The notes under the pieces are model-generated. The model was not told where the DNA came from, made no database searches, and saw only the letters and a list, made by a program, of their open reading frames with translations. A program made the translations under genes and the position numbers. DNA of 64,000 bases from Candidatus Thorarchaeota archaeon (GTDB lineage: Archaea; Asgardarchaeota; Thorarchaeia; Thorarchaeales; Thorarchaeaceae): positions 64,001-128,000 of the forward strand of contig JBHLRS010000003.1 of NCBI GenBank assembly GCA_048882325.1. Direction: 5' to 3'. Each line of letters opens with the position of its first letter. The first letter of the stretch is position 1. Positions 11,076 to 16,008 of the stretch are shown piece after piece.

Positions 11076-11175
11076 CTATATCATCCATTCCAAGTAGAGT
11101 AAACAAGGACGAATCGGTCGGTATGTTTAAGAGCGAACTGAAAATTCTCGATTTCCAAGGTCGGTGCTAAGAAAA

Positions 11176-11574
11176 TTGAGCGATGAGACCCCAGAAAGAA
11201 GCGAGATGATACGCTCCACAATTATTACTGTGCTACTCACTGTAGTCTTTATGGTTTTAGGACTGGCTTTTTGGGCTTGGTCTTCGCCAGATGTCATTGA
11301 AACAAGCCCTGTCGGGGCTATTAATCTCATAAATCCAGCTGTCACTATACTCATCGAAGTCCTAGTTATGCTTATGGTTTTCATCTTCCTCTCCGTGACA
11401 GTGATAAATCTGAGACTGATGCTAAGTAACATTAGAGCTGGTTGGACTGAAGTCGTTGTCATTCTTGCCTTTATCGCTATCGTCACAGTTTCTATGTTTG
11501 GTCTTGGCGTCGGAGCTGCGACTGTGATTCTTTGTCTTGGTTTTGTTGTATACCTTTATCTGCTTCAAGACTGA
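11176..11574 (+). CDS. Hypothetical membrane protein (4 TM)
   Basis: Hydrophobic ORF with four predicted helices. Start uncertain. Confidence 0.7.
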   Translation: MSDETPERSEMIRSTIITVLLTVVFMVLGLAFWAWSSPDVIETSPVGAINLINPAVTILIEVLVMLMVFIFLSVTVINLRLMLSNIRAGWTEVVVILAFIAIVTVSMFGLGVGAATVILCLGFVVYLYLLQD

Positions 11575-11588
11575 GCACTCCCACTCTT

Positions 11589-11753
11589 CAGAACTCGCGG
11601 ATGCACCAGAAGCTTTATGAGTATAGGACTTGGATTTCGAGTCAGCGCCCAGTGGCAGGAATGCCAAGGGCCAGTAGCAAAGGAGTCCTCACAACTCTTC
11701 GGAATTGTCGGATTGAATATCTTTGGCAAAGTTCTGACTTCCGCTGAGTTCTG
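11589..11753 (+). ncRNA. Putative structured RNA element (unknown family) upstream of psmA
   Basis: Closing helix CAGAACTC-GCGG/CCGCTGAGTTCTG and inner helix CAGAA(G)CTTT/AAAGTTCTG. Contains a GGAA tetraloop hairpin and a C(UUCG)G hairpin. Confidence 0.55.
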
Positions 11754-11776
11754 TCGACTGCTTGGAGGAAGATATT

Positions 11777-12505
11777 GTGTTTGGGATCTCTGGCGCTGGT
11801 TATGATATGAGTACCAGCATATTCAGCCCTGACGGAAGGATATTCGCTGCAGAATATGCAAAGAAGGCAGTAGAACAAGGAGCTACATCTATAGGAATCC
11901 TTGTAGAAGAAGGAGTCATTCTTTTAGCTGAGAAGAAATTGCAGCCCCTTCAAGAACCTGATAGTGTTGAGAAGATTTCAAAGATTGATGAACACGTAGG
12001 TGTAGCAACATCTGGGTTGATGGCTGATGCACGGAAGCTTATTGCTGAAGCAAGAGTAAAAGCTCAGTCCTATTGGTTAACATTTGAAGAGCCAGTCCCT
12101 GCTGAAGTATTGGCTGAGCACATTTGTGATATCAAGGCACAGTTCACACAGGGTGGCGGAGCCAGACCTTATGGCGTCGCAATGATGTTTGGATCAGTTG
12201 ATCATGATGGATCTCCCAGACTGTACGTCACTGATCCTGTGGGAACATATTGGGGTTTTCTGGCATCCATTATTGGACGAGGTGCCACAAGTGCTGGCGA
12301 GGTTCTTGAGAAGAAATACAATCGGAAGATGAGTCTAAATGATGCGATTGAACTTGCAATTGACTCACTCCGTGAAGCTAGCGACAAGAACTTGACTGCA
12401 GACACAATCGAGATTGCCAAGATACCCGTAAAATCACGCACCTTCGAGAAACTCTCGAGTTCTGAGATTGAACACTTCCTCAAAACTACTACGTCCACTG
12501 AATAG
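11777..12505 (+). CDS. psmA: Proteasome alpha subunit
   Basis: YD..SIFSPDGR.F..EYA, SGLMADAR, RPYGVA, TDP.G. GTG start after GGAGG (11764-11768). Confidence 0.95.
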   Translation: MFGISGAGYDMSTSIFSPDGRIFAAEYAKKAVEQGATSIGILVEEGVILLAEKKLQPLQEPDSVEKISKIDEHVGVATSGLMADARKLIAEARVKAQSYWLTFEEPVPAEVLAEHICDIKAQFTQGGGARPYGVAMMFGSVDHDGSPRLYVTDPVGTYWGFLASIIGRGATSAGEVLEKKYNRKMSLNDAIELAIDSLREASDKNLTADTIEIAKIPVKSRTFEKLSSSEIEHFLKTTTSTE

Positions 12506-15858: not shown

Positions 15859-15868
15859 ATAACAATGA

Positions 15869-15890
15869 GATGATGGGGGCACCCCCAATC
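15869..15890 (+). terminator. Stem-loop after rrp42
   Basis: GATGATGGGG...CCCCAATCATC inverted repeat immediately after the stop. Confidence 0.45.
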
Positions 15891-16008
15891 ATCCATTTCA
15901 TACTCACAAATAGATAGCTTATTAAGAAAAACTGCTGGGCGACTGATAGGTTCCAGCAGCCTAACCTCACCCCATTTGGAGTGAAGCAGAAACCAAGGAG
16001 ACCCAACA

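What the first reader, a model, noticed from the sequence alone, without database searches (positions are those of the whole stretch)
11589..11753. Unannotated ~165-nt structured RNA directly upstream of the proteasome/exosome superoperon
Seen: nested long-range helices 11589-11600 with 11741-11753 (12 bp, one bulge) and 11607-11616 with 11728-11736. AGGACT(11625)/AGTCCT(11684) pair, or alternatively a GACTTG/CGAGTC hairpin forms, and the two are mutually exclusive. Also present are GCCC..TGGCA-GGAA-TGCCA..GGGC (GNRA loop) and ACAA.TC-TTCG-GA.TTGT (C(UUCG)G loop). It ends 11 nt before the psmA SD. Both canonical tetraloops read correctly on the + strand. It sits where many archaea have RNase P protein genes. 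I cannot match it to tRNA, SRP or RNase P RNA. Inference: a new cis-regulatory leader/switch or a standalone ncRNA.
Basis: partly seen in the sequence, partly recalled or inferred. Interest (0 to 1): 0.75.

Follow-up and report, generated by a model that had tools for sequence, protein, structure and literature searches.

The report
Structured psmA-operon leader RNA, Thorarchaeota
Just upstream of the proteasome/exosome operon of a Thorarchaeota (Asgard archaeon) genome lies a likely promoter followed by a roughly 120-base folded mRNA leader that matches no known RNA family, is conserved across the family, and probably controls how the operon is translated.

Summary

**Layout**
- 11589-11604 is an unconserved spacer.
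- 11605-11621 (ACCAGAAGCTTTATGAG) behaves like a BRE/TATA promoter.
- 11622-11643 is a variable spacer of fixed length.
- The RNA probably starts near 11644 and runs to 11763, directly abutting the psmA SD (11764-68; GTG start at 11777).

**Fold**
- A 5' hairpin spans 11647-11671.
- A long imperfect stem-loop spans 11680-11763.
- Its core is a nearly invariant bulged helix, GGAA-YU-GYCAG / CUGRC-UUCC.

**Evidence**
- A covariance model finds one copy per genome, in 76 of 86 genomes of the family and 14 of 16 genera.
- It finds none in 125 genomes from 26 other Asgard families.
- All 20 divergent hits examined, and the 49 leaders collected earlier, lie directly upstream of psmA.
- In 69 leaders, 27 of 34 pairs show compensatory changes (0 of 500 shuffles reach this).
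- Rfam gives no hit.

The two long-range helices, the GACTTG/CGAGTC hairpin and the UUCG tetraloop are not conserved.

**Function**
This part is inferred. The most likely role is a cis-acting, protein-bound translational operator, possibly a UUCC/SD anti-SD switch.

Another first-stage note on this same genome describes the same stretch. The scan has nothing on other DNA.

The parts
11575..11604 (+). Non-conserved spacer after the stop codon of the upstream 136-aa membrane-protein ORF.
   Evidence: This stretch is unalignable and of variable length among same-genus genomes.
11605..11621 (+). Promoter-like motif ACCAGAAGC-TTTATGAG. The BRE-like part is 11606-11613 and the TATA-like part is 11614-11621.
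   Evidence: The motif is invariant in most genera. In other genera it varies but stays T/A-rich: CTTATTTG, GGTTTAT, CTTTAAT. It resembles the T/A-rich boxes upstream of this genome's tRNA genes. It occurs once in the genome. Its spacing to the first RNA hairpin is 31-34 nt in 60 of 69 leaders. Its function as a promoter is inferred.
11622..11643 (+). Spacer between the TATA-like box and the predicted transcription start. It contains the species-specific GACTTG/CGAGTC inverted repeat (11627-11643).
Evidence: The length is conserved but the sequence is not.
11644..11646 (+). Predicted transcription start (A 11644, about 30 nt after the first T of the TATA-like box).
   Evidence: This is inferred from the constant TATA-to-hairpin spacing. 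No RNA data were available.
11647..11671 (+). 5' hairpin H2. The lower stem is GCCC/GGGC (11647-50 with 11668-71) and the upper stem is UGGCA/UGCCA (11653-57 with 11662-66). The loop is GGAA.
   Evidence: It appears in the single-sequence MFE. All 8 pairs show compensatory changes, with 72-83% of cells paired in 69 sequences.
11672..11679 (+). Single-stranded linker (CAGUAGCA), mildly A-rich across homologues.
   Evidence: The linker is 36% A against 25% for the whole leader. This is a weak signal.
11680..11687 (+). 5' arm of the closing helix P-out (AAGGAGUC).
   Evidence: It pairs with 11756-11763. Compensatory variants are GUAAUC/GAUUAC, GUGAUU/AAUUAC and CAGCAAC/GUUGCUG. Seven of 8 pairs show double changes.
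11690..11697 (+). 5' arm of the middle helix (CA.AACUC).
   Evidence: It pairs with 11746-11753. All 7 pairs show double changes, and 67% of cells are paired.
11700..11712 (+). 5' arm of the core: CGGAA (11700-04), bulge UU (11705-06), GUCGGA (11707-12). The consensus is YGGAA-YU-GYCAGR.
   Evidence: The core is 96.7% paired in 69 sequences. Pair types include C-G/U-A/A-U, U-A/C-G/A-U and A-U/G-C. The core helix is predicted in 59 of 69 single-sequence MFEs.
11713..11732 (+). Variable apical region. It is an open loop here and a GCCCAC...GUG(A)GG hairpin in other clades.
11733..11743 (+). 3' arm of the core: UCUGAC (11733-38) and UUCCG (11739-43). It contains the near-invariant CUUCC (11738-42), which is also complementary to the SD.
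   Evidence: The alternative pairing with GGAGG/GGAAG comes and is inferred.
11746..11753 (+). 3' arm of the middle helix (GAGUU.UG).
11756..11763 (+). 3' arm of the closing helix P-out (GACUGCUU). It ends one base before the SD.
11764..11779 (+). Shine-Dalgarno GGAGG (11764-68), spacer, and the psmA start codon GTG (11777-79; ATG in many relatives).
   Evidence: These are read directly from the sequence. They are conserved in the alignments. Pfam Proteasome and Proteasome_A_N match the ORF read from 11777.

Best explanation
The locus is the promoter plus a structured 5' leader of the psmA-SBDS-rrp4-rrp41-rrp42 mRNA.

**Proposed path of expression**
- A BRE/TATA-like box (11605-11621) directs transcription from about 11644.
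- The transcript first forms a 5'-proximal hairpin (11647-11671).
- It then forms a long imperfect stem-loop (11680-11763). The closing helix of this stem-loop ends one base before the SD.
- The near-invariant core of the stem-loop is a bulged helix, GGAA-YU-GYCAG paired with CUGRC-UUCC.

**Proposed mechanism**
The leader acts in cis on translation initiation and/or stability of the operon mRNA. The most likely mode is as an operator for an RNA-binding protein that recognises the bulged core helix. Products of the operon itself (Rrp4/exosome, SBDS) are the obvious candidates.

The UUCC strand of the core is also complementary to the SD (GGAGG/GGAAG). Anything that opens the core would therefore free an anti-SD sequence and close the ribosome-binding site. 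The GGAA strand would act as an anti-anti-SD.

**Shown**
- Conservation, synteny with psmA, single copy per genome, covarying helices, and + strand.

**Inferred**
- The promoter and transcription start, cis regulation, protein binding, and the anti-SD switch.
For: **Conservation and distribution**
- The element is single copy in its own genome.
- The CM R1 gives exactly one hit per genome in 76 of 86 genomes of the family, 14 of 16 genera.
- It gives 0 hits in 125 genomes from 26 other Asgard families.
- All 20 divergent hits examined lie directly upstream of psmA. The 49 leaders collected earlier were picked because an SD and psmA-type start follow the motif.

**Selection**
- Leader identity to the window is 0.54-0.85. 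Third-codon-position identity in the adjacent psmA is 0.37-0.55.

**Structure**
- On the MAFFT alignment A2, 87% of cells are paired and all measures exceed the shuffles (0-3 of 500).
- RNAalifold recovers the core helix on its own.
- On the CM alignment of 69 sequences, 82% of cells are paired and 27 of 34 pairs show double changes.
- That alignment has 187 double-changed cells against 82 +/- 8 in shuffles (0 of 500). The covariation score is 0.317 against at most 0.125 for slid partners.
- Single-sequence MFEs recover the core in 59 of 69 leaders. By eye they give the same architecture in most of 49 leaders, including distant ones with quite different arm sequences.

**Strand**
- 82.0% of cells pair on the + strand against 73.4% when read on the - strand.

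**Promoter**
- The motif is T/A-rich like this genome's tRNA promoters, has fixed spacing to the first hairpin, and varies among genera while staying T/A-rich.
- Conservation begins abruptly at the motif.

**Link to translation**
- The closing helix abuts the SD in all sequences.
- In one clade the leader's SD and start codon drive a 13-17 codon uORF that overlaps or abuts a second SD and psmA start. The leader-SD module is therefore kept even when separated from psmA.

**Alternative fold**
- With the 5' arm of the core blocked, the alternative MFE pairs CUUCC(R) with (Y)UGGAGG in most leaders.
- The two states differ by a median of 3 kcal/mol.
Against: - There are no transcript data. No RNA run was listed, so the transcription start, the 5' end and even expression are all inferred.
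- Single-sequence folding energy is only weakly better than shuffles (z = -1.76).
- The BRE-like part is far more conserved than a core promoter needs. It could be an additional DNA-binding site, or it could even be transcribed.
- No protein partner has been shown.
- The anti-SD pairing cannot be tested by covariation, because both strands are nearly invariant.
- The anti-SD pairing is weak in lineages with CUUCU, CUUUC or UUUCU. In those lineages the core helix is the one that gets compensated.
- Constrained-MFE differences of a few kcal are expected for almost any enforced 5-bp helix.
- The CM-derived alignment is fitted to the structure, which inflates pair counts.
Confidence: 0.6

Rival explanations
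1. The leader is a passive 5' UTR structure. The 5'-proximal hairpin and the long stem-loop only stabilise the operon mRNA against 5'-end-dependent decay, or keep the SD in a defined open context. No effector and no switching are involved.
For: The hairpin begins about 3 nt from the predicted start. The SD is unpaired in the MFE of the leader alone in 35 of 69 sequences. Internal loops and apical parts vary freely.
Against: Pure stabilisers do not need the near-invariant sequence seen in the core helix and its YU bulge (GGAAYUG / UCUGRCUUCC), while every other helix drifts with compensation.
Confidence: 0.17
2. The element is a standalone or 5'-UTR-derived small RNA of about 120 nt. It is made from its own promoter and acts in trans. 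psmA is expressed by read-through or after processing.
For: It has its own promoter-like motif and a compact, conserved fold.
Against: There is no oligo-T or terminator-like site between the structure and the SD. The last helix ends one base before the SD, so psmA has no room for a promoter of its own. The element always sits immediately upstream of psmA, or of a uORF coupled to it. It occurs once per genome.
Confidence: 0.12
3. The element is a metabolite-binding riboswitch. The long stem-loop is the aptamer, and the UUCC/SD pairing is the expression platform.
For: Mutually exclusive pairings of the UUCC strand with GGAA or with the SD are possible. It is a long conserved leader with no Rfam match.
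Against: The conserved nucleotides lie inside a helix rather than in junctions or internal loops, which are variable. It is a single unbranched stem with no multi-helix junction. No metabolic logic links a small molecule to proteasome, SBDS and exosome genes.
Confidence: 0.06
4. Conservation reflects DNA-level elements only, such as transcription-factor sites downstream of the TATA box. No RNA structure matters.
For: The promoter-like motif is invariant. Single-sequence z-scores are weak on both strands.
Against: There are compensatory double changes in 27 of 34 pairs. P-out arms have been completely replaced yet still pair. The excess of G.U pairs on the + strand also argues against this.
Confidence: 0.04

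Closest known systems
Autoregulatory mRNA leaders bound by a product of the operon (bacterial and archaeal ribosomal-protein leaders such as the L1 and L10 leaders; the archaeal L7Ae 5'-UTR K-turn). This comparison rests on my own knowledge.
   Same: It is a structured 5' UTR next to the SD of an operon that encodes RNA-binding proteins. It has a helix-plus-bulge element conserved in sequence, while the surrounding helices drift with compensation.
   Different: No Rfam leader family matches. No K-turn (tandem G.A) motif is present. rRNA mimicry could not be tested. The operon encodes proteasome alpha, SBDS and exosome subunits rather than ribosomal proteins. The L37ae gene lies after a 150-nt gap with its own TATA-like box.
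Translational switches with an anti-SD / anti-anti-SD arrangement (expression platforms of translational riboswitches and RNA thermometers). This comparison rests on my own knowledge.
   Same: One strand (CUUCC) can pair either with an upstream GGAA strand or with the SD. The two states are mutually exclusive and close in predicted energy.
   Different: There is no aptamer-like conserved junction. No ligand or temperature logic is evident. The SD-sequestering state has no covariation support.
5'-terminal stabilising stem-loops of mRNAs (for example the E. coli ompA 5' UTR). This comparison rests on my own knowledge.
   Same: A hairpin begins within a few nucleotides of the predicted 5' end.
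   Different: The 5' end has not been mapped. The element is much larger and has a sequence-invariant core.
Plastid-psbJ-4 3'UTR RNA (RF04340), the only Rfam match at E < 10.
   Same: Both are long hairpins. The match covers 11689-11753.
   Different: The score is 18.2 bits against a gathering score of 55.2, with E = 1.6. It is a plastid family. This is a chance match.

Membership tests
Any Rfam 15 family (including RNase P, SRP, 5S, riboswitches and r-protein leaders) | Covariance-model score at or above the family's gathering threshold | tested here: not met
   There were 0 hits in the whole window at gathering thresholds. The only hit in 11450-11900 at E <= 10 is an 18-bit chance match.
tRNA / tmRNA | Cloverleaf detected by ARAGORN | tested here: not met
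   ARAGORN found no genes in the window.
C/D box sRNA | Conserved C box (RUGAUGA) near the 5' end and D box (CUGA) near the 3' end, forming a K-turn, in an RNA of about 50-70 nt | tested here: not met
   CUGA occurs in the core 3' arm but varies to CUGG or CUGU, and it pairs as a Watson-Crick helix. UGAUGA occurs only in some g1 species, downstream of CUGA, and is absent in other genera.
MITE / repeat element with terminal inverted repeats | Multiple copies in the genome; conserved terminal inverted repeats | tested here: not met
   There is a single full-length copy in the genome. The 5' 'TIR' arm is not conserved in relatives.
Small protein-coding gene (ORF 11617-11805) | Reading frame and length conserved among homologues | tested here: not met
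   The ORF from the ATG inside the TATA-like box ranges from 4 to 97 codons. Most g1 species have a TAG at codon 12, and frame-breaking indels occur.
Structured cis-regulatory 5' leader | Lies between the promoter and the SD of the regulated gene, on the same strand, with conserved synteny | tested here: met
   All 20 divergent hits checked are directly upstream of psmA. The last helix abuts the SD. Promoter position is inferred. The + strand is favoured.
Structured cis-regulatory 5' leader | Secondary structure conserved with compensatory changes | tested here: met
   27 of 34 pairs show double changes and 0 of 500 shuffles reach the observed values.
Structured cis-regulatory 5' leader | Alters expression of the downstream gene | not testable with these tools
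   This needs reporter or toeprint assays. No RNA run was listed.
Riboswitch | Conserved unpaired nucleotides in junctions or loops forming a ligand pocket | tested here: not met
   Positions conserved at 90% or more lie in the core helix, its bulge and the SD. Internal loops and the apical region vary.
Riboswitch | Binds a small-molecule ligand | not testable with these tools
Ribosomal-protein-type autoregulatory leader | The leader mimics the protein's rRNA binding site | tested here: inconclusive
   rRNA genes are missing from this assembly and from two single-contig relatives, except for a 23S fragment. No comparison could therefore be made.

The most novel reading that the evidence does not exclude
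The leader is a feedback operator specific to one Thorarchaeota family (f1). An RNA-binding product of the operon (exosome cap Rrp4 or SBDS) binds the invariant bulged helix. This releases the CUUCC strand, which then sequesters the SD. Synthesis of proteasome alpha, SBDS and the exosome core would thereby be coupled through one RNA switch. This would be a first autoregulatory leader for RNA and protein turnover machinery in Asgard archaea.
Probability: 0.2. Interest if true: 0.75.

Novelty: new member of a known kind. Interest (0 to 1): 0.55.

Why it matters
Few cis-regulatory RNAs are known in archaea, and I am aware of none in Asgard archaea. Two full-text literature searches found no description of this element.

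This leader sits in front of the conserved operon that encodes the proteasome alpha subunit, SBDS and the exosome core. These are machines shared with eukaryotes. A conserved, covarying leader gives a concrete and testable handle on how their synthesis is coordinated in the closest archaeal relatives of eukaryotes.

It also supplies a ready covariance model for annotating Thorarchaeota genomes, and a well-defined candidate promoter for a lineage with no mapped transcription starts.

Tried and rejected
**Structures and identities rejected**
Its 5' arm is not conserved.
It shows no compensation, has A.C mismatches, and its partner column covaries elsewhere.
- The GACTTG/CGAGTC and AGGACT/AGTCCT alternatives are not conserved. 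The first is 44% paired, and hairpins in other clades sit in shifted registers.
- The C(UUCG)G hairpin has a non-conserved loop and competes with the 97%-paired core helix.
- A MITE is ruled out because the element is single copy.
- A small ORF is ruled out because it is not conserved.
- A C/D box sRNA is ruled out because the boxes are not conserved.
- A regulon motif is ruled out. The promoter-like 17-mer occurs once in the genome at up to 3 mismatches apart from chance-like partial matches.
- A copy of the core motif elsewhere in the genome was sought. None was convincing.

**Attempts that gave nothing usable**
- RNA-seq evidence: no RNA holder was listed.
- rRNA mimicry: rRNA genes were not available in this assembly or in two single-contig relatives.
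- A-rich linker as an exosome or Rrp4 site: the enrichment is mild (36% A against 25%) and is not used as evidence.
- Energetic bistability of the SD-free and SD-sequestered folds was computed but is too unspecific to count as support on its own.
- Literature searches found no description of this element.
- A pattern scan of genome contigs also hit many bacterial contigs. These are chance matches to the 19-base pattern, because no psmA or leader follows.

Full report
**Context**

The finding lies in the 202-nt gap between two genes on the + strand.
- Upstream is a 136-aa ORF (11164-11574) with no Pfam match, read as a membrane protein from its hydrophobic sequence.
- Downstream is psmA. Alignment with relatives places its true start at GTG 11777 (ATG in many species), preceded by GGAGG at 11764-11768.
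- After psmA come SBDS, rrp4, rrp41 and rrp42.
- After a 150-nt gap containing its own TATA-like box come L37ae, Pcc1, prefoldin beta and others.
- Record titles of homologous contigs identify the lineage as Thorarchaeota, Asgard archaea.

**Checking the observation**

That fold is no better than shuffles. The z-score is -0.95 on the + strand and -2.1 on the - strand.

Rfam gives nothing at gathering thresholds and only an 18-bit chance match at E < 10. ARAGORN finds nothing. The stretch is single copy in its genome, so it is not a MITE despite the terminal inverted repeat.

**Conservation**

BLAST against relatives shows the stretch is conserved throughout the genus. Conservation starts abruptly at ACCAGAAGCTTTATGAG (11605-11621).

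The same motif sits about 172 nt before the psmA start in other genera.

A covariance model (R1) was built from 49 distinct leaders.
- It finds exactly one hit per genome in 76 of 86 genomes of the family, 14 of 16 genera.
- It finds none in 125 genomes of 26 other Asgard families sampled.
- All 20 divergent hits I inspected lie directly upstream of psmA.
- Four of the genomes without a hit were examined. They have a diverged leader (G052), a degenerate one (G053) or a rearranged one (g23). A fifth, G078, lacks the orthologous psmA in its assembly.

Leader identity to the window is 0.54-0.85. Third-codon-position identity in the adjacent psmA is 0.37-0.55. The leader is therefore under purifying selection.

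**The 5' part is most simply a promoter**

The motif is T/A-rich, like the boxes about 30-38 nt upstream of this genome's tRNA genes: CTTAAATC, CTTTTATC, GTTTTATT.

In other genera it changes to CTTATTTG, GGTTTATG or CTTTAATT. It keeps T/A-richness rather than a fixed sequence.

The distance from its first T to the first base of the first conserved hairpin is 31-34 nt in 60 of 69 leaders, while the intervening sequence is free to vary. With a TATA box at about -30 to -23, a figure from my own knowledge of archaeal promoters, this places the start at about 11644.

It is paired in only 44% of cells across relatives, and hairpins in other clades sit in different registers.

The ATG inside the motif opens ORFs of 4 to 97 codons in different species, so it is not a conserved coding sequence. 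The motif occurs once in the genome.

No RNA run was listed, so the transcription start remains inferred.

**The conserved RNA structure**

Window coordinates are taken from the MFE.
- **H2:** 11647-50/11668-71 and 11653-57/11662-66.
- **P-out:** 11680-87 with 11756-63, ending one base before the SD.
- **Middle helix:** 11690-97 with 11746-53.
- **Core:** CGGAA 11700-04 with UUCCG 11739-43, a UU bulge at 11705-06, and GUCGGA 11707-12 with UCUGAC 11733-38.
- **Apical region:** 11713-32, variable.

The evidence comes from several alignments.
- On a plain MAFFT alignment of 37 leaders, 87% of cells are paired and all five measures exceed the shuffles (0-3 of 500). The covariation score is 0.220 against at most 0.126 for slid partners.
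It has 10 pairs with double changes, reached by 70 of 500 shuffles.
- Column 153 (U to C) is compensated by column 120 (A/G).
- RNAalifold on 49 sequences calls the core helix unaided. Pair types there are C-G/U-A/A-U, U-A/C-G/A-U and A-U/G-C.
- On the CM alignment of 69 leaders, 82% of cells are paired and 27 of 34 pairs carry double changes. There are 187 such cells against 82 +/- 8 in shuffles (0 of 500). The covariation score is 0.317 against at most 0.125, and the core is 96.7% paired. This alignment is fitted to the structure, so its counts lean towards that structure.
- Without any alignment, single-sequence MFEs contain the core helix in 59 of 69 leaders.
- By eye, most of 49 leaders fold into the same hairpin-plus-long-stem architecture. 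This includes distant leaders whose P-out arms are entirely different but still complementary: GUAAUC/GAUUAC, GUGAUU/AAUUAC, CAGCAAC/GUUGCUG.
- Reading the same pairs on the - strand drops pairing from 82.0% to 73.4%, which favours the + strand.

Positions conserved at 90% or more are confined to three places: gGAAYUG.uYaG, guUCUGRCU.UCc and cuUGGAGGA. These are the core helix with its bulge, and the SD.

**How it probably works**

Three facts tie the element to translation initiation rather than to a separate RNA.
- The closing helix abuts the SD.
- No terminator-like or oligo-T site intervenes.
- In one clade the leader's SD and start codon drive a 13-17 codon uORF whose stop overlaps or abuts a second SD and psmA start.

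Sequence invariance inside a bulged helix, with every other helix free to drift, is the signature of a protein-recognition site rather than a small-molecule pocket. Products of the operon (Rrp4/exosome, SBDS) are the natural candidates. This is inference.

The near-invariant CUUCC of the core 3' arm is complementary to GGAGG (with one G.U) and to GGAAG.
- When the 5' arm is blocked in silico, most leaders refold so that CUUCC(R) pairs with (Y)UGGAGG.
- The SD-free and SD-sequestered states differ by a median of 3 kcal/mol.
- One diverged leader (G052) has CCUCC, which improves SD pairing at the cost of the core.

Against this, lineages with CUUCU or UUUCU compensate the core helix, not the SD pairing. 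The alternative fold also cannot covary, because both strands are fixed. I therefore rate the switch as a plausible but unproven extension.

**Rivals**
- A passive stabilising UTR fits the 5'-proximal hairpin but not the invariant core.
- A standalone or processed sRNA is disfavoured by the lack of a terminator and by the SD-abutting helix.
- A riboswitch is disfavoured by the absence of conserved junction nucleotides.
- Purely DNA-level conservation is contradicted by the compensatory changes.

**Comparison with known systems, and novelty**

The element works like an autoregulatory mRNA leader or a translational operator. Its possible anti-SD / anti-anti-SD layout resembles riboswitch expression platforms. 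It is not a member of any Rfam family, and two literature searches found no description of it.

It is a new member of a known kind: a new structured 5'-leader motif restricted to one Thorarchaeota family. Mimicry of an rRNA site could not be examined, because the assemblies lack rRNA genes.

An earlier first-stage note on this same genome (e1-5554662, 11613-11779) reads the stretch as a leader of about 135 nt, which agrees with the boundaries found here. The scan holds nothing on other DNA.

Noticed in passing
L067, L069, L071, L083, L123 (leader region; e.g. L083:4270-4340 on the - strand): In one clade of the family, the leader's SD and start codon are followed by a 13-17 codon uORF. Examples are GTG TTT GCA ... 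TAG, and ATG ATT CCT ... TGA. The uORF's stop overlaps or abuts a second GGAGG and the psmA start. It looks like a duplication of the psmA 5' end that created a translationally coupled uORF.
   Followed up: partly
window 11164-11574 (+): A 136-aa hydrophobic ORF with no Pfam match lies upstream. Its C-terminus (..VYLYLLQD/E*) and its position just upstream of the psmA promoter are conserved across most genera of the family.
   Followed up: partly
L227, L228, L229, L226 (other contigs of family genomes): Family genomes carry a second proteasome alpha paralogue (41-44% identity to this psmA). The CM gave only one hit per genome, and the leader hits I examined sit at the orthologous psmA, so the paralogue appears to lack the leader.
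   Followed up: partly
window 15859-16008: The 150-nt gap between rrp42 and L37ae contains a TATA-like GATAGCTTATTAAG (about 15913-15927). The superoperon is therefore probably split into at least two transcription units here. The L37ae ORF is 133 aa, about 50 aa longer than the Pfam domain.
   Followed up: no
G000 contig C20, upstream of tRNA-Gly(tcc), and contig C44, upstream of tRNA-Cys: Inverted repeats (AAGACC ACGA GGTCTT; AGGA...TCCT) lie between the TATA-like box and the tRNA 5' end. This recalls the species-specific hairpin in the psmA promoter spacer. It may be chance.
   Followed up: no
G000 contig C26:31242-31332: ARAGORN calls a tRNA-SeC (tca) in this genome, which suggests selenocysteine use.
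   Followed up: no
G000 whole genome; G049 and G073: No 16S or 23S rRNA genes were found in this assembly or in two single-contig relatives, apart from a 23S 3' fragment in G073. They are either unassembled or withheld.
   Followed up: partly
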